Shown one piece after another: positions 52,095-63,397 of a stretch of 64,000 nucleotides of DNA. Source of the stretch: Gammaproteobacteria bacterium. GTDB lineage: Bacteria > Pseudomonadota > Gammaproteobacteria > Pseudomonadales > PIVM01. The notes beneath the pieces are model-generated. The model was not told the DNA's origin. It searched no databases and saw only the letters and a program-made list of their open reading frames with translations. A program made the position numbers and the translations under genes. Numbering within the stretch: position 1 is the stretch's first letter; each line of letters opens with the position of its first letter. The stretch spans positions 40,833 to 104,832 of the forward strand of contig PIVM01000003.1 of assembly GCA_003353945.1 (NCBI GenBank), given 5' to 3'.

Positions 52095-53333
52095 ATGATA
52101 AAAAAACCAAAAGCTGATTGTCCTGCTTTTTTACGTGCGCTCAACCAAAGCGGCAAACTGTTAATGCACGCCGGTTTGATACGTAAAAAAATCAATGCTG
52201 ATAAACTGATCGATCATGCAGTTAAGCAAACAGGATTCAGTAATTTTGGCGATGAACAGATCATCGAAGGTTTTAACATACTCTGCCAGTCATTGAATGA
52301 AGACGCTAATTTAAATTATATCGGCCGACATTGGATAGCTCGTTTTTTAGGCCAGGCACTGGCGAATCAGCTGCAAATTATTCATTGGTGCAGTCAACAC
52401 CCGTACATTTACAAAAACAAAATCTCTTCCCCAATTATTATTGTTGGTATGCCCCGCACGGGCACTCAACTACTCTACCGGCTGCTTGCACAGGACAATG
52501 GTTTTCGCGCACCACTTAGTTGGGAAGTACACAACCCTTTTCCACCGCCTCTTGTAGCCAAGATCACGACAGACACGCGTATTACACGTACGGATGTCCA
52601 ATACGCCCTATTTCATCGTTGCGCACCAGCACTACTTAATCTTCACTCAATTGGCGCACGGTTCCCCGAAAACTGTTCCGCAATCGATGTGTTTTCCCAG
52701 CAAAACCTATTTTGGAGCAGTGCTTTTAATCTCCCAGCCTATAGTCACTGGCTGCAGTTGCAGGACTACTCATCATCACTTAACTATGAAAAGCTATTTT
52801 TGCAATATCTTCGTTCTGATTATGCTGAGCAACGCTGGCTATTGTGTTCCTCTGCACACCTGCAGTCTCTCAACGCACTGCTTGCGGTTTATCCGGATGC
52901 TAACATTGTCCATGTGCATCGCAACCCTCTAACAACCCTCGGTTCACTCTGTCATTTCAACTACCAGTTACGAAATGTGTTTAGTGACAATGTGGAATCA
53001 GAAAGTTTAGGAAAAGAACAGCTTGAATTGTGGTCACAGATTTTGAATCAAGTCTGCGAGCAACGAGCAGCTCTGGATGAAAATCAAAAACAGCAGTTCT
53101 TTGATGTGCAGTTTGAACAGTTATCACAAAACCCCATGTCCGTTATTGAAAAGCTGTATCAACATTTCAACCTACCACTTGGCAGTGTCATACGGGGAAG
53201 AATGCAACAACTCATTAACAACAATACCATTGAATCACAACAACGCATAAACTATAACTTGCAGGATTTTGGCCTAGATGAACATCGCGATATGCGACGA
53301 TTTCATTCCTACAAATCAATTTTCCTTAATTAG
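52095..53333 (+). CDS. Sulfotransferase-family protein (cytoplasmic, PAPS-dependent type)
   Basis: 412 aa. IIIVGMPRTGTQLLYRLL matches the 5'-PSB loop (PKxGTT-like). A later region, WLLCSSAHLQSL, is also present. Confidence 0.7.
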   Translation: MIKKPKADCPAFLRALNQSGKLLMHAGLIRKKINADKLIDHAVKQTGFSNFGDEQIIEGFNILCQSLNEDANLNYIGRHWIARFLGQALANQLQIIHWCSQHPYIYKNKISSPIIIVGMPRTGTQLLYRLLAQDNGFRAPLSWEVHNPFPPPLVAKITTDTRITRTDVQYALFHRCAPALLNLHSIGARFPENCSAIDVFSQQNLFWSSAFNLPAYSHWLQLQDYSSSLNYEKLFLQYLRSDYAEQRWLLCSSAHLQSLNALLAVYPDANIVHVHRNPLTTLGSLCHFNYQLRNVFSDNVESESLGKEQLELWSQILNQVCEQRAALDENQKQQFFDVQFEQLSQNPMSVIEKLYQHFNLPLGSVIRGRMQQLINNNTIESQQRINYNLQDFGLDEHRDMRRFHSYKSIFLN

Positions 53334-53363
53334 TGCCGCAGAAAAAATAAATTTTCCAATGCC

Positions 53364-53678
53364 CTAATTCTCTACTCGTGCCAACTGTTCACGCATTCGC
53401 TTTCCCATCGACCGAATCAACTGCTCTTTTTGTTTCCGATTCATTTTTTTGATTGCTGCTTCACGCTGACTGGCAGAGCTTCGATTATGACCGACCTCAA
53501 AGAAGCGCAGCTTGCTTGGCACCCTCCCCCTAAAATATTTGGCTCCGTTTTTTCCGGTAAGATGCTCTTGCCAACGACGCTTGATATCAACAGTTATCCC
53601 GGTATATAGAGTGCCATCACTCGCCTCAATCATATACACGGACCAGTGGTTGGGTGGCTTGTCACACGCTCTTATCAC
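53364..53678 (-). CDS. GIY-YIG nuclease-superfamily small protein (UPF0213-like)
   Basis: 104 aa. Motifs WSVYMIEASDGTLYTGITVDIKRRWQEH, GAKY and SASQREAAIKK. Confidence 0.8.
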   Translation of the reverse strand: MIRACDKPPNHWSVYMIEASDGTLYTGITVDIKRRWQEHLTGKNGAKYFRGRVPSKLRFFEVGHNRSSASQREAAIKKMNRKQKEQLIRSMGKRMREQLARVEN

Positions 53679-53693
53679 GCATTCCTCCAGCCC

Positions 53694-54434
53694 TCAGCGA
53701 CCAGACAGAAACTTAATCCGCTGAAATACAGGCTCCGGTAGCCAGCGCACCACCCACATTACCCAACACCAGAATCCAGGGACGTAGCGTGTATAACGCC
53801 GACTCTGCAGCGTTGCCATCATGATATCAACGACACGCTCAGTGGTGGAAAACGAGAAATTTTTGTTATGCTCCTCTGTCATAGGGGTAATTACCGGCCC
53901 CAACTTAAAACTATAGACCTCAACACCTGAATCCCACAATTTAGACCGCAAGCCCTGCAAATAGAGATTAAGTGCTCCTTTGGCCGTTCCGTAAGTGTAA
54001 TTTCGCGGTCGACCACGATCTCCAGCCACTGAGGCCATCACTGCGATTTTACCGCTGCCCTGGCGCTCCATGATCTGGCTTAGGGGTATAAGGAAAGCAA
54101 CTGCGGACAAAAAATTGGTTTGGAAAATTTCTTCCGCATGGCCATAATCCTCTTCACTGCGCAACTGCTCCCCTATATAGCCATGTGCTATCAGTGCAAT
54201 ATCAATTCCCCCCAACGCCTCAACGGCCTGCTCGACCCATTTGGCAGCATTTTCCGTTTGAAGAAAATCTGCCGCTTGCACACCCACAGGCGGACAGTCC
54301 ATAGTCTTCGATAATGCCTCCAATTTGCTCTTGCTACGGCCAATCAAGTACAGTTGATTAGCACCTCGGGCAAAACTACGCACCATTTCAGCGGCAATAG
54401 CTGATGTTGCCCCAATGACTACAATCCGACTCAT
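53694..54434 (-). CDS. SDR-family oxidoreductase (DprE2-like, hydrophobic C-terminal tail)
   Basis: 246 aa. Motifs VIGATSAIA, YGTAKGAL (YxxxK) and the tail FWCWVMWVVRWLPEPVF. Confidence 0.85.
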   Translation of the reverse strand: MSRIVVIGATSAIAAEMVRSFARGANQLYLIGRSKSKLEALSKTMDCPPVGVQAADFLQTENAAKWVEQAVEALGGIDIALIAHGYIGEQLRSEEDYGHAEEIFQTNFLSAVAFLIPLSQIMERQGSGKIAVMASVAGDRGRPRNYTYGTAKGALNLYLQGLRSKLWDSGVEVYSFKLGPVITPMTEEHNKNFSFSTTERVVDIMMATLQSRRYTRYVPGFWCWVMWVVRWLPEPVFQRIKFLSGR

Positions 54435-54711
54435 AATTCAATTTCACTCCAAATCACCGTTGAATTGACCCAACTCTATCTAATCGACCTAATCTGCAAG
54501 TACTCCATGTTATTTCAAAGCGCCGTTAATAGATTAATTTTTCATCAGCACCAAAAAGCACTTGCTTCCCGCATCAGGTCACGTTGACAATAGTTAATGA
54601 GGCACTTGTTTGCCAATAATAAGTCGTATGGCATGTTTTCGAGATACCGCATTAAACTCAAATAATTAATAACACTCGATACTTGAACTCTATACAAAGG
54701 AATATAACATC

Positions 54712-54861
54712 ATGGATATAAGTCAATTTTCCTATACCGAACTCGCTTTATTCGCAGTTACCACTTTTACCGTTGTTTTTGTAGTTCGCGCTTATATCCA
54801 GGCTCGTCGTGAATACAAAGAAGCGATGAGGCATCATGGGCAATTACATCACAACAGCTGA
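54712..54861 (+). CDS. Candidate 49-aa single-TM small protein (below the track length cutoff)
   Basis: ATG 54712 lies 10 nt after AAGGA. Translation is MDISQFSYTELALFAVTTFTVVFVVRAYIQARREYKEAMRHHGQLHHNS, ending at TGA 54859-54861. Found by hand translation only. Confidence 0.3.
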   Translation: MDISQFSYTELALFAVTTFTVVFVVRAYIQARREYKEAMRHHGQLHHNS

Positions 54862-54941
54862 ATAGTCCTGCTACTAAACGGCTTTCTCTCGACAGACTGA
54901 ACCGGGCATTCAACCCGGCTCGGTGTCGCATTGAAAAACGG

Positions 54942-55691
54942 CTATAGCTGTGCAACACTGCCTTCCAGCATAGATTTGGCGATTTGCCGATTCACGTCAC
55001 CCGCAAAAACCAGCACCTTGTTCCCTGCCAACGCCTCCAAACTCTCACGCACCACATCTCCAGCCTCCATCCACATTTCATCAGGTACTTTGCTAGCATC
55101 AAATTCGGCAAACGGTTCAGTTTGATGAAAACCGGTGCGCGTATAACCCGGACAGAGACATTGCACTTTGATATTGTCATTTTCCAGCTCCATAGCCAGC
55201 GACTGGGAAAAACTGTTGAGAAAGGCTTTTGAGGCGCCATAAACCGCCACCCCAGGGCAGGGAGATACGGCTGCCAGAGAGGACACATTGATAATATAGC
55301 CTCCACCAAGCTGTTGCATAAACGGAATTGCAGCACGACACAAGGCGAGCGTCACCGTGATGTGCAGCTCAACCATTTGTTGTTGTTCAGCACAACCCAG
55401 ATCAGCAACATGGCCCATAACACCAAAACCGGCATTATTGATAAGATAGCGTATCGGCCCTATCTGACGGATCGCCTCAAGCACATAACCTCGGCCAATC
55501 GGATCGGTCAAATCCACAGCCAACACATGACATTTCACTTGTTGACTTAATCGAGCTGCTAAACGTGACAAAGCCTCTTCACGGCGCGCCACCAGTATCA
55601 TCTCATCACAACGCCCGGCCAACTGTAGCGCGTACTGCTCACCAATACCGGAGGAGGCACCCGTAATCAGCGCGACGGTTTTATCACTCAT
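54942..55691 (-). CDS. SDR-family oxidoreductase
   Basis: 249 aa. Motifs TGASSGIG, NNAG and YGASKAFL (YxxxK). Confidence 0.88.
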   Translation of the reverse strand: MSDKTVALITGASSGIGEQYALQLAGRCDEMILVARREEALSRLAARLSQQVKCHVLAVDLTDPIGRGYVLEAIRQIGPIRYLINNAGFGVMGHVADLGCAEQQQMVELHITVTLALCRAAIPFMQQLGGGYIINVSSLAAVSPCPGVAVYGASKAFLNSFSQSLAMELENDNIKVQCLCPGYTRTGFHQTEPFAEFDASKVPDEMWMEAGDVVRESLEALAGNKVLVFAGDVNRQIAKSMLEGSVAQL

Positions 55692-55749
55692 AGTTGTTTC
55701 CCCAATCGATTGCGATGCGTATTATTCCATGCTCTCTACTTAAGCTCAT

Positions 55750-56190
55750 CTAAAAAAGCGTCACTATTTGTTCTGCCAGCATAATCAATACCAAATAGCG
55801 TGCACCCTTGCCAAGAAACGTCAGCGTCCAGAACAACATAAAACGAACTCGCATAACACCAGCAACAAAAGTAATTGCATCACCTCCGACCGGCAACCAG
55901 GCTAAGAGCAAAGACCACACCCCATAGCGCTGAAACCATCGCTGAGCATGCTGCAAGGCGCTGCCTTTGAAGGGAAACCAGCGATGCTGCTGAAAATGCA
56001 ACAGGTAACGCCCTAACCCCCAATTAACAGCAGCACCGGCTGTATTACCCAGTGAGGCCACCAGCCATAACCAAAACCAGTTCTGCTGCTCCAATGCGAC
56101 CAGACCCAGTAATGCCACTTCGGAATAGAACGGAATCAGCGTAGCGGCAACAAAAGCGCTGACAAACAGTGAAAGATAAGCAGCAATCAC
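55750..56190 (-). CDS. YqaA/DedA-type (SNARE-associated) membrane protein
   Basis: 146 aa with four TM helices (IPFYSEVALLGL, GNTAGAAVNWGLGRY). Its GTG start overlaps the TGA of the upstream gene. Confidence 0.8.
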   Translation of the reverse strand: MIAAYLSLFVSAFVAATLIPFYSEVALLGLVALEQQNWFWLWLVASLGNTAGAAVNWGLGRYLLHFQQHRWFPFKGSALQHAQRWFQRYGVWSLLLAWLPVGGDAITFVAGVMRVRFMLFWTLTFLGKGARYLVLIMLAEQIVTLF

Positions 56191-56957
56191 ATGATGCGCT
56201 CCTGGCGATGATCATGGGCAGCTTGCACGATGTGATGAAATAGCTGTAACTGCTGCGGCAAATAAGGCAAATATTCTGGATGCCACTGAACGCCCATTAA
56301 AAAACGGTGCTGACTGTACTCAATGGCTTGAATAAAATCGTCCTCATCCCAAGCGACAGCCTGCATATACTCTCCCAAACCATCAACCGCCTGGTGGTGT
56401 AGACTGTTCACCTTTAACCGATCGCGATACACAAGGTCTCGAACGCGACTGCCTGCTTTCAGATTAACTGCTTTTTGCGGCAGCAGCGTTCGTCGGTTTG
56501 ATGTCAAATGCCGCATTGCACGAATATCACCAAAAAGTGTGCCGCCTAATACCACGTTAAGTAATTGCATCCCCCGACAAATACCAAAAATCGGCAAATC
56601 CGTGCGCATTGCGTGCTCTATCATATCCACTTCAAATGCATCGCGTTCACGGTCAATAGGTGCCAGCCCCTTGTCTTCCCTGCCGTAAAGCTGTGGATCA
56701 ATATCATCCCCACCGCCAATAATGACAGCATTGAGCAACTGGTGATAATCGCCTCGCTGAGGCGTTAAATAAACAGCAGCCGCTCCGCACAGCCGCAGGC
56801 AGAATCGTGCTGCCCACCAGGCTTGCGGTATACGTTTTTCCGGACCAGTGAAGCCTATGATGGTTCGATTAAACAAGACGGCACCTGTTCCTTCCAGGGG
56901 ACAACAAAAGGCCAGCGCATCGGTTGCTGCAAATAAATCCAGTACCGATAACACCAT
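56187..56957 (-). CDS. Class-I glutamine amidotransferase / peptidase C26 (gamma-glutamyl-GABA-hydrolase PuuD-like)
   Basis: Motifs IFGICRGMQLLN (nucleophile Cys), SLHHQA and GVQWHPEY (His/Glu). The start is ambiguous: ATG 56957 overlaps the amidoligase by 103 nt, while the in-frame TTG 56876 overlaps it by 22 nt. Confidence 0.85.
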   Translation of the reverse strand: MVLSVLDLFAATDALAFCCPLEGTGAVLFNRTIIGFTGPEKRIPQAWWAARFCLRLCGAAAVYLTPQRGDYHQLLNAVIIGGGDDIDPQLYGREDKGLAPIDRERDAFEVDMIEHAMRTDLPIFGICRGMQLLNVVLGGTLFGDIRAMRHLTSNRRTLLPQKAVNLKAGSRVRDLVYRDRLKVNSLHHQAVDGLGEYMQAVAWDEDDFIQAIEYSQHRFLMGVQWHPEYLPYLPQQLQLFHHIVQAAHDHRQERIM

Positions 56958-57913
56958 TTTTCCAATCGCTGACTGTCACTGGCCAGCATTTCAACCTGCC
57001 ACCAATCGTTCCAGGCCTGGCTCAGCGACCAATTTGGCAGATCAATTTCACAGTTAGGCAACCGATAATGCAATGCAGGACGTGCCTTGATCAAATGATC
57101 ACTTACAGCACTTTCAACGACGGAATGATCAAGCAAATCAAATAGCGGTAATAAATCGAGAATACGATTACGGGTTGCATTATATTCGAGGTAATCCGTT
57201 ATTAGCTCCGCCAACTCCGGCCAGTAATCCGGATCAACTACCAGCTGCACATAATCTGTAGGAAATACATTGATATAGGGCGGTATGCGCCGTGTCAAAT
57301 CCACCTGCTCATGCCATATCAACCAGTCATTCAGGCACAAAAAAGCTTTTAAGTAGGCTGTGATGGTATCAGCCTCCAGACTGGGAAGTTCAATATTATA
57401 ATGTACCCCAAACGCATACCACGGCGTTTGACGAGTGCCTTTGGCTCCCACTTCACGCAAAGCGGTGACGATGGCATCCAATTGATACAATTGGCTGATC
57501 GCAATCGGTGATCCAGCAAGCTCGCAAGGCACAATATTCTGCGCCAAAGCCGCCATCGCATCCGTGGCCCACTGCTCAAAATCCTCATTAAAATTAGGGT
57601 TATCCTGCAGCTCCCTGCCTGCCCGTTTAAGCATATCACTATCAAGTTCAATACTGAATGTCCCCAACTCAGTGTCCACGATACTCATTTCATATTTGGA
57701 GCGAACCCGTATGTCTCCACCACATACTGACTGCACCGCCTTTGCGATAGCAGCCAACTCAATGCCCGACATCTCCATTTCAATGCCAACACGACGCTCT
57801 TTTCGCGTACCAGGCATGTCGCCTGTAAATCTTTCAATAGCCAGCCCTACACATTGCTTGTCGCTCTCTAGCAAGTATCGTTGCCGAGGTAACAGAAAAG
57901 ATCCTTCTTTCAT
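56855..57913 (-). CDS. Glutamine-synthetase-fold 'amidoligase' family enzyme (uncharacterised)
   Basis: 352 aa. The motif series RRVGIEMEMSG, VPCELAGSP, FGVHYNIELP and RPALHYRLPN matches my recollection of the putative amidoligase family. No search was run. Confidence 0.7.
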   Translation of the reverse strand: MKEGSFLLPRQRYLLESDKQCVGLAIERFTGDMPGTRKERRVGIEMEMSGIELAAIAKAVQSVCGGDIRVRSKYEMSIVDTELGTFSIELDSDMLKRAGRELQDNPNFNEDFEQWATDAMAALAQNIVPCELAGSPIAISQLYQLDAIVTALREVGAKGTRQTPWYAFGVHYNIELPSLEADTITAYLKAFLCLNDWLIWHEQVDLTRRIPPYINVFPTDYVQLVVDPDYWPELAELITDYLEYNATRNRILDLLPLFDLLDHSVVESAVSDHLIKARPALHYRLPNCEIDLPNWSLSQAWNDWWQVEMLASDSQRLEKWCYRYWIYLQQPMRWPFVVPWKEQVPSCLIEPS

Positions 57914-58062
57914 GGTGATAATGAACTCATGGAAAGCCTGTAGTCACCCAGTATCAGCAAACACTGACGAAAATGATAGCCACATATCATCTTCTGAGCT
58001 GCTTGGATTAACCAGATAATGCTAAACTGTCTTTATAGTAAACAAAAAAATTGGCGCAACTC

Positions 58063-58419
58063 ATGAATGAGCCCATCGATCGTCGACAGCATAGTCGCTA
58101 TCCAGCAAACCACCTGGATGTACTGATTCAGACCAATAGCACCGTTGATTTACCCTGGGCATTAGCCGAACTGGTTGCTGTTGATTTCAACCAATATGGC
58201 ATCGCTATTCAATCCGATCATTATTTTGGTGTTGGTGACAATCTTTCGCTGATCATCTGTACCGATGACAGTGTAACAGCCAAAGTGAAAGGCATCGTAT
58301 GCAACCGAACCGTACTGGCGACAGGTTACAGGTATGGACTGTATTTCGATTACAGCGAGACAAAACAAGCTATCCCTGAGCGGCAGGTATTAATAGATAT
58401 TGAAGAGTCAGTAAAATAA
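58063..58419 (+). CDS. Stand-alone PilZ-like domain protein (paralog 2)
   Basis: Track start 58051 is TTG; ATG 58063 gives MNEPIDRRQHSRYPA. Carries RRQHSR and DFNQYG. 45 of 90 aligned residues are identical to the 49225 protein in an ungapped hand alignment. Confidence 0.65.
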   Translation: MNEPIDRRQHSRYPANHLDVLIQTNSTVDLPWALAELVAVDFNQYGIAIQSDHYFGVGDNLSLIICTDDSVTAKVKGIVCNRTVLATGYRYGLYFDYSETKQAIPERQVLIDIEESVK

Positions 58420-58456
58420 CACTGTCTCATCTCTACCATCCACGCGCGAACCTATC

Positions 58457-59311
58457 TTATTTCGCCACCAGTCGCTCACTCAACAACCAGAGTTTGTTTG
58501 CTGCTGCATCATCACAAGCCCAGGGTTTAAGCTGCTGCACTTGACTGTTGGCAAAATAATTGCCAGTTAAATCCTCTATACCTTCGGCGTTTGCCAGATA
58601 CAGCGTCGTTTGAGCACCCTGCAAAGGCGTTTTGGCAAAAGGTTTCACCAACTGGTGGGCAAACCGGGCAAACCAGCCATTTTGCTTACCCAGCTCACTT
58701 GCCACAGCTCCCGGATGCACTGCATAAGCAGTAATCCCAGCTGCTTGCAGGCGCCTGGCTAACTCTCTAGTAAACAGAATGTTCGCCAACTTGGAATGAC
58801 CATACGTTCTAAAGGTTTTGTAACCCTGATACCAGCTCAAATCGTCAAATCGAATGCCTTCTTTGCAAAATGTATAGGCATTGGAGGACAGATTGATAAT
58901 TCTCGCTGGTGCACTCTCAGTTAGCCGAGGCAATAGCAGTTGCGTTAACAGAAAATGACCTAAATGGTTGACTGCAAACATTTGCTCCAATCCATTGGAT
59001 AACAAATGTTTTTCAGTATTAATCAATCCTGCATTATTGATAAGCAGGTGCAGAGGCTTACCTTCAGCAAGAAACACGGCTGCTGCTTGCCGAACCGAAG
59101 CGAAATCCCCCAAATCAGCAATCAGCGTCATCACGTTAATATGTGGATACTTTGCCTCAATATCTTTTTGTAGAACATCCGCACGTGGGCGATTTCGACA
59201 CAACAAATACAGATCGATCCCTTGCTCGGCCAGTGCAAATGCCGTCGCTTTGCCAATACCGTTTGTTGGTCCGGTGATAAACGCTATTTTTTTGTGGTTA
59301 TGTCCGGCCAT
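58457..59311 (-). CDS. SDR-family oxidoreductase (retinol-dehydrogenase-like)
   Basis: 284 aa. Motifs TGPTNGIG, NNAG and YGHSKLAN (YxxxK). Confidence 0.88.
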   Translation of the reverse strand: MAGHNHKKIAFITGPTNGIGKATAFALAEQGIDLYLLCRNRPRADVLQKDIEAKYPHINVMTLIADLGDFASVRQAAAVFLAEGKPLHLLINNAGLINTEKHLLSNGLEQMFAVNHLGHFLLTQLLLPRLTESAPARIINLSSNAYTFCKEGIRFDDLSWYQGYKTFRTYGHSKLANILFTRELARRLQAAGITAYAVHPGAVASELGKQNGWFARFAHQLVKPFAKTPLQGAQTTLYLANAEGIEDLTGNYFANSQVQQLKPWACDDAAANKLWLLSERLVAK

Positions 59312-59476
59312 AATTTGTCGACTCGCTGCTTGGAAAACGCAAGATAACCCTTAGGATTAAAAAGATAAACCGCTTGGCCCCAGCTTTAGGGCCTCGGAAA
59401 ATTTATTTTCCCCGAGGCCCTTATGCCTGATCTAGCATGCTCCATTCCCTCTCGCATAGATAATCCTAGAAAAATC

Positions 59477-59824
59477 ATGGCCCTTAGCACTGCATTACGC
59501 CTCAACATGACTGGCAGTTTCCAAAACCCCGATCAAGCCTGGCAGGAACTGGCTCCCTACTTCCTCAATGAATCCAGCGAATACGCCAGTTGGGGATAAT
59601 CCGACGCACAACTACCAAGCCAACAAAAAATCTCCACAATTGATGAACTACGAGAGCAAAAACGCTATAAAATTCTGACTCCGACTGAATGTATCGAACG
59701 TATACAAGGGCATCACGGCAAGTTTACCCTGGTATTGCACCCGTTGGTTGGAGGCATGCCGCTGGAACGAGCCTGGCACAATCTGGAACTTTATGTAGAG
59801 AAAGTACTAAAACAATGCCAGTAA
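59477..59824 (+). pseudogene. Possible C-terminal remnant of an LLM-class flavin oxidoreductase with an in-frame stop
   Basis: One reading frame gives MALSTALRLNMTGSFQNPDQAWQELAPYFLNESSEYASWG, then a stop (TAA 59597-59599), then SDAQLPSQQKISTIDELREQKRYKILTPTECIERIQGHHGKFTLVLHPLVGGMPLERAWHNLELYVEKVLKQCQ. The tail resembles LLM C-termini (liGtPeeci..i, gGmp.e.a..slEly..kVl). No N-terminal part is present. Confidence 0.35.
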
Positions 59825-59845
59825 CCCGACCGGTGAAACTGGCTT

Positions 59846-60148
59846 TCATCGTCCGTGATCACCACTACGTTGAGCCGTCGATTCCGTGTTTTTTTCTTCA
59901 TCAAGCAGTTGCGCTTTGACCAAATCCCAACATTTTCGTGTCCATTCTATGATTTCCTTACCAAGCAAGGGTAATGCGAGGTACCAGGTCACTTCGGCAA
60001 AGATAAAAATGCCACCTCCCCATGCTGCTTTCTCGGCGGTTTCCATCGGTAAAAAAGGCACTACCAACAGCAATGCAAAGGCCAAACAGGAGATGATCAG
60101 AAAAAAATAACCCAGAAGTTTTCGCATATACGGTGCTGCAGTAGACAA
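59846..60148 (-). CDS. Small two-TM membrane protein (possibly transporter-suffix-domain family)
   Basis: 100 aa with two hydrophobic helices (LLGYFFLIISCLAFALLLVVPFL, WGGGIFIFAEVTWYLALPLLG) and an amphipathic tail. Confidence 0.45.
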   Translation of the reverse strand: MSTAAPYMRKLLGYFFLIISCLAFALLLVVPFLPMETAEKAAWGGGIFIFAEVTWYLALPLLGKEIIEWTRKCWDLVKAQLLDEEKNTESTAQRSGDHGR

Positions 60149-60340
60149 TGAATAAAATCTGCTTCTTTTTCAATTATAGCCTTATGCGACCGTAGCAGTG
60201 AAATAGATTTCAATTTTCAAACGATCAGCCCTCATTTTCCACACGAAATCCTTACCAATAATGCGTGCTAGCCATTGGGGGGAGGGGACTGTTATTATCA
60301 GAATCAGATTTACAATCAACGCTTGAGCAACCATCTATTA

Positions 60341-60745
60341 ATGATCACAAAAATTCTCATTACACTGCTTGTCATAGTTGGCGCTTGGATACTTGTTAAA
60401 CGCCAGCGCCAAGCCCCTCGGCAACAAACACAAGCAAGCAAAACCACTCTTTCCAAGAAAACGGGCAATAGCGATATTCAATGGCAGACATCCGATTTGC
60501 GTATCGGGGCATATATGTTTATCGCCATCATGTTTTTGCTGGGTAGCTATCTCTACTATCAACGCTGGCAAAATGACCATCAGTTACTGAGCATCAAATT
60601 ATATCAAGCAGGCAACCCACAAGCGGTTGAGTATCAGGTTTTTCGTTATCAACTGAATCGCAGAAGCTTCGTCACTACCGACGGTGTGCTTGTCGACATC
60701 GCAGACAATGAGCGGATGGAAATTATCGGTTTAACAGACAAATAA
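60341..60745 (+). CDS. Hypothetical two-TM membrane protein
   Basis: Likely start MITKILITLLVIVGAWILVKRQRQ at 60341 (track start is 60275), with a second helix IGAYMFIAIMFLLGSYLYY. No family recognised. Confidence 0.5.
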   Translation: MITKILITLLVIVGAWILVKRQRQAPRQQTQASKTTLSKKTGNSDIQWQTSDLRIGAYMFIAIMFLLGSYLYYQRWQNDHQLLSIKLYQAGNPQAVEYQVFRYQLNRRSFVTTDGVLVDIADNERMEIIGLTDK

Positions 60746-60881
60746 CAGTAATTGATATCCTGCCTAGGAAAACCCTCAATTTTCGTGACCTAACCCCCTG
60801 GATATTCCCCGCGAACAGCTGCAATTTGGTCTACACTGACATGGACATAAAATCACACACCCGCCGTAAGGAGCAAAGGTA

Positions 60882-61193
60882 ATGCCCTTGAATAAAAAAC
60901 TGCTAATTCTACTACTTGCACTAACGCCAGCGTTAGCTTTGGCCGCAAAACCTGTAAAAATCACACCCGGACCGAAAAAAGTTGACGAAGCAACCGGTGA
61001 AACCTTCCGTCAATACATCGTCTCTTGCAGCAATGGCATAAAAGTGCCGATTGAGTCCTGGACCACGCGTAAAAAATGGTGTCTGGAAAATGGCATATCT
61101 ATGGACGACTGCTGGAAAAAACAAATCAAGGCCGCAAAAAAAGCCTGTAAAGGCGGCAAGCCAAAAAACGTGCCGGAAAAGCCACCCGCTTAA
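60882..61193 (+). CDS. Hypothetical secreted small Cys/Lys-rich protein
   Basis: 103 aa. Clear signal peptide MPLNKKLLILLLALTPALALAAKP, four Cys residues and a K-rich tail. AAGGAG lies upstream. Confidence 0.6.
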   Translation: MPLNKKLLILLLALTPALALAAKPVKITPGPKKVDEATGETFRQYIVSCSNGIKVPIESWTTRKKWCLENGISMDDCWKKQIKAAKKACKGGKPKNVPEKPPA

Positions 61194-61237
61194 TACCTAG
61201 CTACTGTACATAATATTGGGGAGGCAAAATGTCTCCC

Positions 61238-63064
61238 TCATCCAGCAAATTCATTTGCTGCGCAGTCTTCGATAACCCGGATAAAACTGTCGGCATAACG
61301 TTTTAATTTATTTTCACCAACTCCGTTAATCATTAGAAATTCGCGATGCGTACGGGGGCGAAATCGTACCAGCTCACGAAGCGTTGCATCGTGAAAAACA
61401 ACATAAGGTGGCACACCTTGCTCTTGAGCTAAGCGCTGTCGGCAATCTTTCAACGCTTCCCATAAGGCACGATCAACTGGATCAAGAATCGGTTTTTTAT
61501 GTGTTTTCTCTTTCTCATGTTTGGGGCGAGTATCCTTACGCAATTGCAGTTTTGTTTCGCCGCGCAATACAGAACGGCACTCTGGCGTTAGCTGCAATGC
61601 CCCGTAGGCATCCATATTCACATGCAGCAAGCCTCTGGCCAACAGTTGACGAATCACCGAACGCCACTGAACCGCGCTTAATTCCTGTCCTATGCCATAG
61701 GTGCTCAGGTTTTGATGCTGAAAACGCAGGATTTTTTCCGTTTCGTTTCCTAGCAACACATCAATCACATGATTAACACCAAACCTCTGATCCGTGCGAT
61801 ACACCGTTGACAGTATTTTTTGTGCAACTTCGGTTGCATCCCAGGTTTTGGGTGGCATCAAGCAAATATCACAATTGCCGCAGGGTTCGGCATGCGTTTC
61901 ACCAAAATATCGCAATAATACCTGTCGACGACAACTGGTCACTTCACACAAACCCAGCAAGGCATCAAGCTTGATCTGTTCTACACGTTTAAACTGTTCC
62001 TCTGCCTGCGACGCGGCCTGCATCTGCTTCAAGCGCACCACATCCTGCAGACCATAAACCATCCAGGCATCCGCCGGTAGGCTGTCACGTCCGGCCCGAC
62101 CCGTCTCCTGGTAATAAGCTTCAATACTTTTTGGCAAATCCAGGTGAGCAACAAAGCGCACATCCGGTTTATCTATTCCCATACCAAATGCAATAGTCGC
62201 TACGATAATGATACCGTCTTCGCGCAGAAAACGATTTTGATTCTGCTCCCGTAATTTAGTTGGCAACCCCGCATGATAGGGCAATGCAGTAAAGCCCTGG
62301 TCACATAACCAATGGGCCAGGCCTTCGACTTTTTTGCGCGACATACAATAGACAATACCGGCATCGTTCTGATGCGTAGCAAGAAATTTCAATAATTGCT
62401 GCTTAGCGTTTTTCTTTTCAGCAATCGCATAATGAATATTGGGTCGATCAAAACCACTGATAAAAACGCCTGCATGACCGAGATTCAAGCGCTGAATAAT
62501 TTCCTGTTGCGTGCGCCCATCAGCAGTGGCGGTAAGCGCAATACGTGGTACTGCAGGAAACTGCTCATGAAGCACACTGAGCCCTAAATAGTCCTTACGA
62601 AAATCATGACCCCATTGGGAGACACAATGCGCTTCATCAATTGCAAACAATGCTATATCGACCTCAGTGAGCAGCTGCCGTGTCCTTGGTTGCAGCAAAC
62701 GTTCGGGAGCGACATACAATAGATCCATGTTGCCAGCTCTTAACGCTTGCTCTATCTCCTGTTGTTGATATGGATTGAGCGTAGAATTTAGAAATGCTGC
62801 ACGAATACCCAGTTGATGCAGTGCAGTCACCTGATCCTGCATCAAGGCAATCAATGGTGAAACAACAATACCGACTCCCTGACGTAGCAAAGAAGGAAGC
62901 TGGTAACAAAGAGACTTACCACCACCCGTAGGCATTAACACTAAGGCATCGCCACCTTGCAACAGACAATCAATAATTGCCTGCTGCTCCCCTCGAAATT
63001 GATCGTAACCAAAGGTTTGCTTAAGAACAGTACGTGCAGATGTTGTAGTTGTTGTTGTAGTCAT
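61238..63064 (-). CDS. recQ: ATP-dependent DNA helicase RecQ
   Basis: 608 aa. Motifs [14 protein letters not shown] and [14 protein letters not shown], a zinc-binding CxxC region (CGNCDIC), and RQC plus HRDC domains. Confidence 0.95.
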
Positions 63065-63088
63065 ATGGCGATTATAACCCAGGAGTCA

Positions 63089-63397
63089 CTAATGCAGACG
63101 ATGGGTTTGCAATTGCACCGCCTCGACCTGGGAACCTAAGGTAACCACCCGCCCCTGATAACGCTCATCTCCTGTGGAAGTAAATTCAAACAGATAAGTA
63201 CGCCACACTCGAAACTGCCCCCGTGCATCGCGTTTTAGCCAAAAACGACTCACAGCCACAGTGTCATCCAGCAATTGCACCTCCATCTGCTGGCAATGAC
63301 GCTTGGCGGCCAAATGAGCAATTTCCTGTACACCCTGGGCACTCCAAATATGCCAGCCAATGGCCACAAGACATAATAATATGGTTAGCTCAAACAT
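63089..63397 (-). CDS. DUF3301-family small membrane-anchored protein
   Basis: Likely start MFELTILLCLVAIGWHIW at ATG 63397 (track start is 63514). Also carries QLLDDTVAV...WRTYLFEFTSTGDERYQGRVVTLG. Confidence 0.6.
   Translation of the reverse strand: MFELTILLCLVAIGWHIWSAQGVQEIAHLAAKRHCQQMEVQLLDDTVAVSRFWLKRDARGQFRVWRTYLFEFTSTGDERYQGRVVTLGSQVEAVQLQTHRLH

What the first reader, a model, noticed from the sequence alone, without database searches (positions are those of the whole stretch)
54942..57913. Amidoligase + C26 gamma-glutamyl hydrolase + YqaA membrane protein + SDR: an uncharacterised ligate/cleave (Puu-like) module
Four minus-strand genes are packed as one unit.
- The 352-aa ORF (57913-56855) carries the motif series I associate with the glutamine-synthetase-fold amidoligase family: RRVGIEMEMSG, VPCELAGSP, FGVHYNIELP, RPALHYRLPN.
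- Its 3' end overlaps the next ORF (ATG 56957 or in-frame TTG 56876). That ORF is a class-I amidotransferase/peptidase-C26 protein with an intact Cys-His-Glu context (IFGICRGMQLLN, SLHHQA, GVQWHPEY), like PuuD.
- The TGA of that gene overlaps the GTG start of a YqaA/DedA-type membrane protein (GTGA at 56187-56190).
- An SDR follows 58 nt later.

An ATP-dependent amide-forming ligase paired with a gamma-glutamyl-amide hydrolase and a dehydrogenase is the logic of the E. coli Puu putrescine pathway (PuuA ligase, PuuD hydrolase). Here the ligase belongs to a different family with no experimentally defined substrate, and a membrane protein is translationally coupled into the unit.

Plausible roles are transient gamma-glutamyl (or other amide) tagging of an amine for catabolism or detoxification, or modification of an envelope component. 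A further SDR (58457-59311), a divergent PilZ paralog and a decayed flavin oxidoreductase flank it.
Basis: partly seen in the sequence, partly recalled or inferred. Interest (0 to 1): 0.72.

Follow-up and report, generated by a model that had tools for sequence, protein, structure and literature searches.

The report
Conserved amide ligase–hydrolase–membrane protein module
Three overlapping genes (an ATP-dependent amide-forming enzyme of an untested family, a PuuD/SpuA-like gamma-glutamyl-bond hydrolase and a small YqaA/DedA-type membrane protein) form a unit that is conserved, and sometimes fused into one protein, across many marine bacteria, but its substrate is unknown; the neighbouring dehydrogenase is not part of it.

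Summary
In detail: all four ORFs, motifs and junctions are as described, and all four domain calls were verified.

- **Core unit.** It has three genes, not four. Among 70 dereplicated related loci, the C26 gene directly follows the amidoligase in 55 of 66 (usually overlapping it). The VTT gene follows C26 in 17 of 44, spread over at least seven clades. No SDR recurs.
- **Fusions.** Natural Amidoligase_2–C26 fusions (three clusters) and VTT–Amidoligase_2 fusions (two clusters, with C26 next door) confirm functional coupling.
- **Reverse test.** Three of four blind-sampled YqaA homologs sit beside an amidoligase.
- **C26 identity.** Its nearest solved relatives are Lin1909 and the gamma-glutamyl-amine hydrolases SpuA and PuuD (30–35% identity), not glutaminase subunits (13–22%).
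- **Other neighbours.** Gamma-glutamyltranspeptidase or gamma-glutamylamine cyclotransferase lies directly upstream in 10 loci. The cyclotransferase replaces C26 in two.

**Best reading (about 0.5):** an ATP-dependent gamma-glutamyl-amide ligase and its hydrolase work together at the inner membrane on an unknown amine. **Main rival (about 0.2):** a glutamine-dependent amidotransferase.

It is not a Puu pathway, because the oxidation steps are missing and the ligase belongs to a different family. I class it as a new variant of a known kind. Complete copies in Methylomonas methanica MC09 and Oceanimonas sp. GK1 are candidate experimental models.

The parts
56855..57913 (-). Amidoligase_2 (PF12224) family protein, 352 aa. 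It is the predicted ATP-dependent carboxylate-amine ligase and the first gene of the unit. It carries a lineage-specific insertion of about 20 aa (residues ~14-33).
   Evidence: Pfam E 3.7e-58, match to profile positions 1-244 of 245. 528 homologs at E<1e-5. 994 50%-identity cluster representatives at E<=1e-3. Invariant residues R40, E45, E47, D91, E131, N173, E175, R208, R248, N249, R250, D253, R278, H282, Y283, R284. AF2 model pLDDT 88, pTM 0.88. Best PDB fold hit is YbdK/GCS2 at E 0.036. Phage amidoligase models match at prob 1.0.
56187..56876 (-). Peptidase C26 / class-I GATase-fold protein of the Lin1909/SpuA/PuuD subfamily, 229 aa from TTG 56876. An alternative in-frame ATG at 56957 would give 256 aa. 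It is the predicted gamma-glutamyl-amide hydrolase.
   Evidence: Pfam Peptidase_C26 E 6.8e-48. PDB sequence hits: Lin1909 4.5e-25, SpuA 1e-16, PuuD 8e-16, with GICRG and HPE aligned. 30% identity to E. coli PuuD. NCBI annotates the 229-aa form. It directly follows the amidoligase in 55 of 66 dereplicated loci. It is fused to the amidoligase in P0211, P0217 and P0221.
56855..56876 (-). 22-nt out-of-frame overlap between the amidoligase 3' end and the C26 start (translational coupling).
   Evidence: Sequence read directly. In most related loci the longest C26 ORF begins before the amidoligase stop; the shorter overlaps seen are 4-28 nt. Annotated gene calls overlap by 22 nt in Hahella, 28 nt in Ca. 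Tenderia, 13 nt in Oceanimonas and 40 nt in Methylomonas.
55750..56190 (-). YqaA-family VTT/DedA-domain inner-membrane protein, 146 aa. Its GTG start overlaps the C26 stop (GTGA).
   Evidence: Pfam VTT_dom E 6.7e-16. Sources name homologs 'YqaA family protein'. It directly follows C26 in 17 of 44 loci, in at least 7 clades. It is fused N-terminally to the amidoligase in P0139 and P0258, with C26 downstream of P0139. 3 of 4 blind-sampled homologs are next to an amidoligase. It is the most conserved of the three proteins, typically 51-71% against 40-50%.
54942..55691 (-). Classical SDR, 249 aa, 58 nt downstream on the same strand. It may be co-transcribed here but is NOT a conserved member of the module.
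   Evidence: adh_short E 3.2e-44. No terminator-like site was detected in the 58-nt gap. No ortholog is adjacent to the core in any other locus by tblastn, and adh_short is not recurrent among neighbours.

Best explanation
Shown: a conserved three-component unit. Two cytoplasmic enzymes are made in fixed proportion from overlapping genes, and they are often physically tied to a small YqaA-type VTT/DedA inner-membrane protein.

Inferred mechanism:
1. The Amidoligase_2 enzyme uses ATP to activate a carboxylate as an acyl-phosphate. The carboxylate is most likely the gamma-carboxyl of glutamate, as in the characterised GS/GCL/PuuA/PafA-type ligases I am aware of. The enzyme then joins it to an amine, giving a gamma-glutamyl-amide.
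2. The Lin1909/SpuA/PuuD-like C26 cysteine hydrolase removes that gamma-glutamyl group again through a glutamyl-thioester.
3. The VTT protein places this make-and-break pair at the membrane. It either moves the substrate or product across the membrane, or presents a membrane-bound amine.

What the module achieves: reversible, ATP-paid gamma-glutamyl tagging of an unknown amine. Possible purposes are trapping or transport, protection, or homeostasis of a gamma-glutamyl compound. An apparently futile ligase/hydrolase pair has a precedent in glutathionylspermidine synthetase/amidase, where oxidation of the hydrolase cysteine lets the product accumulate (my own knowledge). The C26 catalytic cysteine could be gated in the same way; the plant C26 enzyme GGP1 has an S-S inactive state (PMC12958103).

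The identity of the amine is not known.
For: Unit is real:
- C26 is directly downstream of the amidoligase in 55 of 66 dereplicated loci.
- VTT is directly after C26 in 17 of 44, scattered over at least 7 clades.
- The amidoligase-C26 junction overlaps in most loci.
- The triad is intact in Hahella, Ca. Tenderia, Methylomonas methanica MC09, Oceanimonas sp. GK1 and a deltaproteobacterial MAG.

Fusions:
- Amidoligase_2-C26: P0211, P0217, P0221.
- VTT-Amidoligase_2: P0139, P0258. The P0139 cluster includes an NCBI MAG protein (MBO6937868.1) and members from other assemblies.

Hydrolase rather than glutaminase:
- Sequence and fold neighbours of the C26 domain are Lin1909, SpuA (solved with a trapped glutamyl-thioester) and PuuD, at 30-35% identity and Foldseek E 1e-19 to 1e-15.
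- Glutaminase subunits (GuaA, CTP synthase, TrpG) begin only at E 1.5e-10, with 13-22% identity.
- The best NCBIfam models are PuuD and gamma-glutamyl-CDP-amidate hydrolase.

Gamma-glutamyl theme from unrelated enzyme families:
- Gamma-glutamyltranspeptidase lies directly upstream on the same strand in 5 loci.
- AIG2-like gamma-glutamylamine cyclotransferase does so in 5 loci. Two of these (L046, L052) lack C26.
- Phage Amidoligase_2 genes sit with a gamma-glutamyl cyclotransferase and a class-II GATase (PMC5498523, PMC10580990, PMC10945688).

Ligase:
- Full-length Pfam match.
- Invariant ExE / PxE / NxE / RNR / RPxxHYR residues lie on predicted strands.
- The best PDB fold hit is the carboxylate-amine ligase YbdK, and a GS-like gamma-glutamylating enzyme ranks 4th.
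Against: - No enzyme activity, substrate or product is known for any member of this Amidoligase_2 clade.
- The GS-fold link is weak here. Foldseek gives E 0.036 and TM 0.33. hhalign against YbdK or PuuA aligns only the ExE strand and is not significant.
- The S1 gamma-Glu pocket is shared by C26 hydrolases and class-I glutaminases (PMC12958103), so the hydrolase reading rests on relative similarity and on context.
- A ligase and a hydrolase for the same bond in one operon, or one polypeptide, is a futile cycle unless something gates or separates them. Nothing conserved in the neighbourhood supplies an intervening step.
- Synthase-glutaminase fusions are the commoner precedent for this architecture.
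- VTT is absent from the locus in about 60% of cases.
- The inter-domain geometry of the fusion model is unreliable (pTM 0.68).
Confidence: 0.5

Rival explanations
1. Two-subunit glutamine-dependent amidotransferase. The C26 protein is a glutaminase that hands NH3 to the amidoligase. The amidoligase converts an ATP-activated carboxylate, for example on a peptide, a lipid-linked envelope precursor or a uronic acid, into a carboxamide. This is the logic of MurT/GatD or CTP synthase, and VTT would handle the lipid-linked substrate.
For: - Intact class-I GATase triad.
- Obligate-looking coupling by overlapping genes, and ligase-N/GATase-C fusions that resemble CTP synthase architecture.
- The shared S1 pocket means glutamine could be the substrate.
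- Phage relatives pair with a class-II GATase (PMC10580990) and are proposed to modify peptidoglycan (PMC5498523).
- A VTT/DedA partner would fit a lipid-linked substrate.
Against: - The C26 domain is far closer to the stand-alone gamma-glutamyl-amine hydrolases SpuA and PuuD and to uncharacterised Lin1909 (30-35% identity) than to any glutaminase subunit (13-22%).
- GGACT, which cannot supply ammonia, replaces C26 in two loci and co-occurs with it in three.
- Periplasmic-type GGT is co-oriented upstream in five loci.
- If the ligase activates free glutamate, as its characterised superfamily relatives do, then NH3 from glutamine gives a null reaction.
Confidence: 0.2
2. One reading: a four-gene Puu-like catabolic or detoxification pathway. 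An amine is gamma-glutamylated, oxidised by the SDR, then deglutamylated.
For: - The SDR lies 58 nt downstream on the same strand with no detectable terminator.
- In the window's own subclade the gene after the core is always an oxidoreductase: an SDR here, FMN_dh in L001 and SRPBCC-SDR in L002.
- The hydrolase is PuuD/SpuA-like.
Against: - No SDR or other oxidoreductase family recurs next to the core across 70 dereplicated loci.
- The three subclade oxidoreductases are unrelated to one another.
- No amine oxidase plus aldehyde dehydrogenase pair is present, and no amine permease of the PuuP type.
- The ligase is not a PF00120 GS-type enzyme.
- The C26 protein scores 72.8 bits against the PuuD equivalog cut-off of 266.
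Confidence: 0.1
3. A phage-derived, anti-phage or superinfection-exclusion cassette, like the proposed phage peptidoglycan-modification cassette, resident in the chromosome.
For: - Phage amidoligases share the fold (Foldseek viral, prob 1.0).
- The C26 protein hits a PHROG 'glutamine amidotransferase' family.
Against: - No PADLOC hit for any protein.
- The amidoligase has no PHROG hit and only about 11% identity to phage models.
- Chromosomal synteny with RecQ is shared with a Spongiibacteraceae MAG.
- No mobile-element genes flank the window copy, and there is no marked GC shift.
- The distribution looks vertical within marine gammaproteobacteria.
Confidence: 0.03

Closest known systems
E. 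coli Puu / P. aeruginosa Pau (Spu) gamma-glutamylation pathways (PuuA/PauA ligase, PuuD/SpuA hydrolase)
   Same: An ATP-dependent amide ligase is paired with a C26 gamma-glutamyl-amide hydrolase. The hydrolase here is a homolog of PuuD and SpuA: 30-35% identity, the same triad, and TM about 0.75-0.8 on the target.
   Different: - The ligase is Amidoligase_2 (PF12224), not a GS-type PF00120 enzyme.
- No oxidase, aldehyde dehydrogenase, aminotransferase, PuuP-type permease or PuuR repressor is present.
- The genes overlap or are fused, whereas puuA and puuD are divergent.
- A VTT membrane protein is part of the unit.
- The C26 protein fails the PuuD equivalog cut-off.
Phage Amidoligase_2 + class-II GATase + gamma-glutamyl cyclotransferase (+ ATP-grasp) cassette, predicted by Iyer et al. 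2009 and described in PMC5498523, PMC10580990 and PMC10945688
   Same: The same ligase family and fold. The same theme of an amidoligase sitting next to enzymes that cut gamma-glutamyl bonds. Neither has been characterised experimentally.
   Different: - Cellular and chromosomal rather than phage-borne.
- The hydrolase partner is class I (C26), not class II.
- No ATP-grasp enzyme or second amidoligase.
- A YqaA-type membrane protein is added.
- About 11% identity to phage models, and no PHROG match.
Glutathionylspermidine synthetase/amidase (GspSA)
   Same: An ATP-dependent amide ligase and a cysteine amidase for the same bond are joined in one polypeptide, giving regulated make-and-break. This is a functional analogy only, from my own knowledge.
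   Different: Unrelated folds (ATP-grasp ligase and CHAP amidase), and no membrane partner.
MurT/GatD lipid II amidotransferase and CTP synthase (ligase plus class-I GATase)
   Same: An ATP-dependent carboxylate- or carbonyl-activating enzyme is coupled or fused to a class-I GATase-fold protein. This is the model for the main rival.
   Different: - The ligase folds differ (Mur ligase; P-loop ALase).
- GatD belongs to a different GATase family (my own knowledge).
- The C26 domain here is much closer to stand-alone hydrolases than to CTP synthase or GuaA glutaminase domains.
DedA/VTT superfamily (E. coli YqaA; UptA undecaprenyl-phosphate transporter; TMEM41B/VMP1 scramblases)
   Same: The VTT domain scores above the Pfam threshold, and sources name homologs YqaA family.
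   Different: - Far below the UptA equivalog cut-offs (39 against 300 bits).
- Only 146 aa.
- I found no report of a DedA-family protein coupled or fused to an amidoligase (zero papers in the searched library).

Membership tests
Amidoligase_2 (PF12224) | Full-length match to the family HMM above the gathering score | tested here: met
   197.7 bits against a cut-off of 22; profile positions 1-244 of 245.
Amidoligase_2 (PF12224) | Conserved acidic/His/Arg set expected of a metal- and ATP-dependent carboxylate-amine ligase | tested here: met
   E45, E47, E131, N173, E175, R248, N249, R250, R278, H282 and R284 are invariant in 30 sequences at 40-67% identity. Their catalytic roles are inferred, not tested.
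Glutamine synthetase / GCS2 (YbdK) fold superfamily | Significant structural or profile similarity to a solved GS, GCL or GCS2 enzyme | tested here: inconclusive
Glutamine synthetase / GCS2 (YbdK) fold superfamily | ATP-dependent ligation through an acyl-phosphate | not testable with these tools
   This needs an enzyme assay.
Peptidase C26 (gamma-glutamyl hydrolase family), Lin1909/SpuA/PuuD subgroup | Family HMM above threshold and a Cys-His-Glu triad aligned to solved members | tested here: met
   163.7 bits against 20.5. GICRG Cys and HPE His/Glu align with Lin1909 and PuuD. The triad is described as fully conserved in C26 (PMC12958103).
Peptidase C26 (gamma-glutamyl hydrolase family), Lin1909/SpuA/PuuD subgroup | Closer to stand-alone gamma-glutamyl-amine hydrolases than to amidotransferase glutaminase subunits | tested here: met
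   For the C26 domain of fusion ortholog P0211: Lin1909, SpuA and PuuD at E 1e-19 to 1e-15 and 30-35% identity, against GuaA, CTP synthase and TrpG at E >=1.5e-10 and 13-22%. The window protein itself shows the same order in the NCBIfam and PDB sequence searches.
PuuD (gamma-glutamyl-GABA hydrolase) orthologs | Score above the NCBIfam equivalog cut-off NF008471 | tested here: not met
   72.8 bits against a cut-off of 266. It is a homolog, not an ortholog.
Puu/Pau gamma-glutamylation catabolic pathway | GS-type (PF00120) gamma-glutamyl-amine synthetase | tested here: not met
   The ligase is PF12224 only.
Puu/Pau gamma-glutamylation catabolic pathway | Oxidase and aldehyde dehydrogenase steps encoded with the ligase and hydrolase | tested here: not met
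   Neither is conserved among 182 neighbouring ORFs (one Aldedh hit, no recurrent oxidase or SDR). The E. coli puu locus is shown for comparison.
DedA/VTT superfamily, YqaA family | VTT domain above threshold in a small polytopic membrane protein | tested here: met
   59.3 bits against 33.9. Hydrophobic segments at residues 1-19 and about 94-126. Homologs are named YqaA family.
UptA (undecaprenyl-phosphate transporter) | NCBIfam equivalog cut-off | tested here: not met
   39.3 and 23.1 bits against cut-offs of 300 and 250.
Two-subunit class-I glutamine amidotransferase | Glutaminase active site facing the synthase through an ammonia tunnel; partner-dependent glutaminase activity | not testable with these tools
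   The fusion model has pTM 0.68 and a weak linker. No PAE or coordinates were available.
Phage amidoligase / GATase-II / GGCT cassette | Class-II GATase and GGCT partners in a phage genome context | tested here: not met
   The partner here is class I. The context is chromosomal and syntenic with L001. There is no PHROG hit for the ligase. GGACT occurs only in 5 related loci, not in the window.
Known anti-phage defence systems (PADLOC) | Match to any PADLOC model | tested here: not met
   No hits for the four module proteins or for PilZ.

The most novel reading that the evidence does not exclude
The YqaA-type VTT/DedA protein is a dedicated partner of an ATP-dependent amidoligase and its gamma-glutamyl hydrolase. 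Together they reversibly modify and move a membrane lipid head group or a lipid-linked envelope precursor, for example an amino-lipid, PE/PS or a polyprenyl-linked intermediate. This would give a DedA-family protein its first enzymatic partner and a defined substrate class.

Hints:
- VTT-amidoligase fusions exist.
- VTT is the most conserved of the three proteins.
- Lipid enzymes are scattered next to VTT-containing loci: a PlsC-type acyltransferase, WS/DGAT, fatty-acid hydroxylase and desaturase, a YegS-like lipid kinase, a CDP-alcohol phosphatidyltransferase, and SRPBCC domains.

An equally untested alternative is synthesis and breakdown of a gamma-glutamyl osmolyte. BCCT, MscS-like, TrkA_N and Na+/H+ neighbours occur, and the distribution is marine or saline.
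Probability: 0.2. Interest if true: 0.8.

Novelty: new variant of a known kind. Interest (0 to 1): 0.58.

Why it matters
- Amidoligase_2 is a large family. This clade alone has 470 50%-identity clusters at E<=1e-30. I found no solved structure and no experimentally defined substrate for any member in the resources searched.
- This work defines a cellular, vertically inherited version of the family. It has an almost obligate PuuD/SpuA-like partner and a recurrent, sometimes fused, YqaA-type DedA membrane protein.
- What small YqaA-type DedA proteins carry or do remains, to my knowledge, unsettled. A dedicated enzyme pair fused or coupled to one gives a concrete handle: find the gamma-glutamyl compound that accumulates when the hydrolase is removed.
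- The module occurs in cultured, fully sequenced bacteria (Methylomonas methanica MC09, Oceanimonas sp. GK1, Hahella, Marinobacterium), which are candidate organisms for testing it.
- The work also corrects public annotation. Some orthologs are labelled 'alpha-L-fucosidase', and the hydrolase is labelled PuuD.

Tried and rejected
- **Genome scan query.** An alignment query would have been better. The metagenome scan with alignment A1 compensated.
- **Gene caller.** My greedy ORF caller was confused by antisense ORFs in high-GC contigs. I took counts from tblastn coordinates instead.
- **Founding paper.** Iyer et al. 2009 (PMC3268129) is not held. I used secondary descriptions.
- **False literature leads.** The Klebsiella CfmP 'amidoligase' is an ATP-grasp enzyme. 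The membrane-vesicle screen hit is a transglutaminase. The Lipocone paper only cites Iyer et al..
- **Fusion model.** Each domain folds well, but pTM 0.68 and the lack of PAE mean no conclusion about an interface or tunnel.
- **SpuA identification.** I briefly doubted that the 7D4R-series entries were SpuA after reading PMC12958103. The PDB titles confirmed that they are.
- **Regulatory signals.** The promoter/terminator scan was at background level. The Rfam scan found no riboswitch.
- **Flavoenzyme remnant.** No FMN_dh remnant was found, and Pfam was negative on fragments from both gaps.
- **Defence or phage origin.** Rejected on PADLOC and PHROG results.
- **SDR as a module member.** Rejected on the neighbourhood census.
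- **Source organism.** P0001 and P0453 could not be looked up by exact sequence, so the window's organism was not identified. The nearest relative is a Spongiibacteraceae MAG at 69% identity.

Full report

Yes. The four minus-strand ORFs are at the stated coordinates, and the quoted motifs are in their translations. The four domain predictions were all verified by Pfam:

| Protein | Pfam family | E-value | Bits |
|---|---|---|---|
| 352 aa | Amidoligase_2 (PF12224), profile positions 1-244 of 245 | 3.7e-58 | 197.7 |
| Second ORF | Peptidase_C26 (GATase 3e-15) | 6.8e-48 | 163.7 |
| 146 aa | VTT_dom | 6.7e-16 | 59.3 |
| 249 aa | adh_short | 3.2e-44 | 151.2 |

The junctions read as described:
- The amidoligase ends at TAG 56857-56855.
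- An in-frame TTG at 56876 has an AGGTG 5 nt upstream and gives a 22-nt overlap.
- The C26 TGA and the VTT GTG share ATGTGA, with an AGGAG 8 nt upstream.
- The SDR starts 58 nt after the VTT stop.

- NCBI's record of this genome holds exactly the 229-aa product (P0269).
- Orthologs are 227-239 aa.
- In natural fusions the C26 domain begins at the same P-x-I-G-V-T-G-P strand.

The flanking PilZ protein and the second SDR are confirmed. The 'decayed flavin oxidoreductase' is not. There is no FMN-dehydrogenase remnant. Two frame-shifted fragments at 59390-59821 (+) look by eye like a luciferase-like monooxygenase C-terminus, but they gave no Pfam hit.

**2. What is the unit?**

The amidoligase belongs to a well-populated orthologous group of about 330-aa proteins. 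It has 528 hits at E<1e-5. It has 994 representatives of 50%-identity clusters at E<=1e-3, of which 470 are at <=1e-30. Members occur in marine and saline gammaproteobacteria, including Hahella, Marinobacterium, Parahaliea, Salinisphaera, Marinimicrobium, Oceanisphaera, Woeseiaceae and Ca. Tenderia.

I collected 86 related loci, added the window, and dereplicated at 90% amidoligase identity to 70 loci. Results from tblastn coordinates:
- A C26 gene lies directly downstream on the same strand in 55 of the 66 loci that have room for one.
- In most of these, the longest C26 ORF begins before the amidoligase stop.
- A VTT gene directly follows C26 in 17 of 44 loci.
- VTT is adjacent to the amidoligase without C26 in two more.
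- On an amidoligase tree, the VTT-containing loci fall in at least seven separate clades. The link is therefore old or repeatedly selected.
- VTT is the most conserved of the three proteins, typically about 60% identity against about 45%.

No SDR recurs. tblastn found no adjacent ortholog. In a Pfam census of the two nearest ORFs on each side (182 ORFs), adh_short was not among the recurrent families. The same three-gene, overlapping arrangement without an SDR is present in the complete genomes of Methylomonas methanica MC09 and Oceanimonas sp. GK1.

**3. Fusions**

The exhaustive representative search turned up long proteins, which Pfam resolves as follows:
- Amidoligase_2-Peptidase_C26 fusions: P0211 (567 aa), P0217 (594 aa), P0221 (620 aa).
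- VTT_dom-Amidoligase_2 fusions: P0139 (570 aa), P0258 (548 aa).

These are different 50%-identity clusters. P0139's cluster includes an NCBI deltaproteobacterial MAG protein (MBO6937868.1) and members from independent assemblies. In its contig the fusion is followed by a C26 gene. All three components therefore stay together in a distant lineage with a different architecture.

In the reverse direction, I sampled YqaA-family homologs of the VTT protein (58-73% identity) blind to their context. Of four that could be looked up, three lie next to an amidoligase: two as ligase-C26-VTT and one as ligase-VTT.

**4. What do the parts look like?**

*Amidoligase.*
- The AF2 model is confident (pLDDT 88, pTM 0.88).
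- Its strands carry the family's invariant residues: E45/E47, E131, N173/E175, R248-N249-R250 and R278/H282/R284.
- No solved structure is detectable by sequence.
- The best PDB fold hit is the carboxylate-amine ligase YbdK, but only weakly (E 0.036, TM 0.33). A GS-like gamma-glutamylating enzyme ranks 4th.
- hhalign against YbdK or PuuA aligns only the ExE strand.
- GS-fold membership is therefore suggestive, not demonstrated here.
- Phage 'amidoligase enzyme' models match at prob 1.0 but about 11% identity. There is no PHROG hit.

*C26 protein.*
- The triad is intact and aligns with solved homologs.
- Its nearest solved relatives by sequence and by fold are Lin1909, SpuA (solved with a glutamyl-thioester) and PuuD, at 30-35% identity and E 1e-19 to 1e-15.
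- Glutaminase subunits of amidotransferases appear only from E 1.5e-10, at 13-22% identity.
- It is not a PuuD ortholog: 72.8 bits against a cut-off of 266.
- The S1 gamma-Glu pocket is shared by C26 hydrolases and glutaminases (PMC12958103). Homology alone therefore cannot exclude glutamine as the substrate.

**5. Context that bears on chemistry**

The upstream census found two further, unrelated families that cut gamma-glutamyl bonds. Each lies directly upstream and is co-oriented:
- Gamma-glutamyltranspeptidase in L020, L033, L045, L059 and L082.
- AIG2-like gamma-glutamylamine cyclotransferase in L018, L044, L046, L052 and L054.

L046 and L052 lack C26. With one or two such genes per genome (my rough assumption), five immediate adjacencies each among about 65 loci, spread over several branches, is far beyond chance.

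Phage Amidoligase_2 genes likewise sit with a gamma-glutamyl cyclotransferase and a class-II GATase (PMC5498523, PMC10580990, PMC10945688). Four different hydrolase folds that share only a gamma-glutamyl specificity therefore accompany this ligase family. This is the strongest argument that the ligase makes a gamma-glutamyl amide.

**6. Mechanism**

*Shown:* a co-translated, sometimes fused, ligase-hydrolase pair, with a recurrent and sometimes fused YqaA-type membrane partner.

*Inferred:* ATP-dependent gamma-glutamylation of an unknown amine, removal of the tag by the C26 enzyme, and action at the inner membrane.

The futile-cycle problem is real. It could be resolved in three ways:
- Gating of the hydrolase cysteine, as in GspSA (my own knowledge). 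The plant C26 enzyme GGP1 has an S-S inactive state (PMC12958103).
- Spatial separation through the VTT protein.
- Intervening steps encoded elsewhere in the genome.

The main rival is a glutamine-dependent amidotransferase, on the logic of MurT/GatD or CTP synthase. It fits the coupling and the fusion architecture. It is disfavoured by the C26 domain's affiliation and by the GGACT and GGT neighbours.

In the window's own subclade, however, the gene after the core is always an oxidoreductase, each from an unrelated family: an SDR here, FMN_dh in L001 and SRPBCC-SDR in L002. A lineage-specific accessory role cannot be excluded.

A defence or phage origin is not supported.

**7. Leads on the substrate (weak)**

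- *Lipid.* Single instances of different lipid enzymes lie beside VTT-containing loci:
  - a PlsC-type acyltransferase and a methyltransferase (L003);
  - a fatty-acid hydroxylase (L013);
  - a desaturase (L004);
  - WS/DGAT (L093);
  - a YegS-like lipid kinase and a CDP-alcohol phosphatidyltransferase (L089);
  - SRPBCC domains (L002, L092, L095).
- *Osmotic.* BCCT transporters occur in six loci, mostly one clade. MscS-like channels occur in L096 and L089. TrkA_N, Na+/H+ and Na+/Ca2+ exchanger neighbours also occur, and the habitat is marine or saline.
- *Transport.* AI-2E family transporters recur in six loci and are directly upstream and co-oriented in L037, L065 and L071.

None of these leads was tested statistically.

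**8. Novelty and verdict**

- The kind is known: a GS-superfamily-type amide ligase paired with a gamma-glutamyl-bond hydrolase. Puu/Pau is characterised. The phage Amidoligase_2 cassette is predicted only.
- This version pairs a cellular Amidoligase_2 clade with a class-I SpuA/PuuD-like hydrolase and a YqaA-type VTT protein, and includes natural fusions. I did not find it described: no paper in the searched library mentions both amidoligase and DedA.
- I could not read Iyer et al. 2009, so part of this may be anticipated there.
- I class it as a new variant of a known kind, of moderate-to-good interest. This is mainly because it offers a testable handle on both an uncharacterised enzyme family and a small DedA-family protein.

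Noticed in passing
window 57816-57875 (amidoligase residues ~14-33): The window's amidoligase has an in-frame insertion of about 20 aa (LLESDKQCVGLAIERFTGDM) that is absent from all 29 aligned homologs. It lies between the conserved N-terminal 'LPxxR' motif and the RRVGxExE strand. AF2 predicts a helix there with lower confidence (pLDDT 57-79).
   Followed up: partly
window 59390-59821 (+): Two adjacent stop-free segments in different frames (69 and 74 aa) resemble by eye the C-terminal part of a luciferase-like flavin monooxygenase (…TPTECIERIQ…HPLVGGMP…LELYVEKVL). Pfam gave no hit, so the idea is unverified.
   Followed up: partly
window 54435-54941: A gap of about 500 nt between two SDR genes has only short ORFs, no Pfam signal, no Rfam hit and no remnant of the FMN dehydrogenase that occupies the equivalent position in L001.
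   Followed up: partly
window 52095-54434: A run of possibly envelope- or lipid-related genes lies just downstream of the module. It comprises a sulfotransferase (52095-53333, +), a GIY-YIG protein (53364-53678, -) and an SDR whose best NCBIfam models are PRK07102 and the DprE2-type decaprenylphospho-pentofuranosid-2-ulose reductase, both below cut-off (53694-54434, -).
   Followed up: no
P0035 (Ca. Tenderia electrophaga), P0053 (Parahaliea aestuarii): Some orthologs of the amidoligase are named 'alpha-L-fucosidase' in NCBI/UniRef. This looks like an annotation error, since they carry only PF12224. The amidoligase-C26 fusion P0211 is named 'PuuD' by JGI.
   Followed up: no
L052 6967-7818 (+); L092 3938-4951 (-): In two loci that lack C26, an alpha/beta-hydrolase gene lies next to the amidoligase or VTT gene. 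It may be an alternative hydrolase partner.
   Followed up: no
L001 vs window 58000-63100: The window shares synteny with a Spongiibacteraceae MAG: RecQ, a small lipoprotein-like gene and a small membrane protein lie upstream of the module. The window has additionally acquired PilZ and an SDR between them and the amidoligase. L001 has an ArfB-like gene there instead.
   Followed up: partly
L096 2066-3433; L089 2127-3038: MscS-type mechanosensitive channel genes lie just upstream of the module in two unrelated lineages, Methylomonas methanica MC09 and a deltaproteobacterial MAG.
   Followed up: no
window 59846-60148 (-): A 100-aa ORF with two hydrophobic segments has no Pfam match. I did not examine whether it is a real gene.
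   Followed up: no
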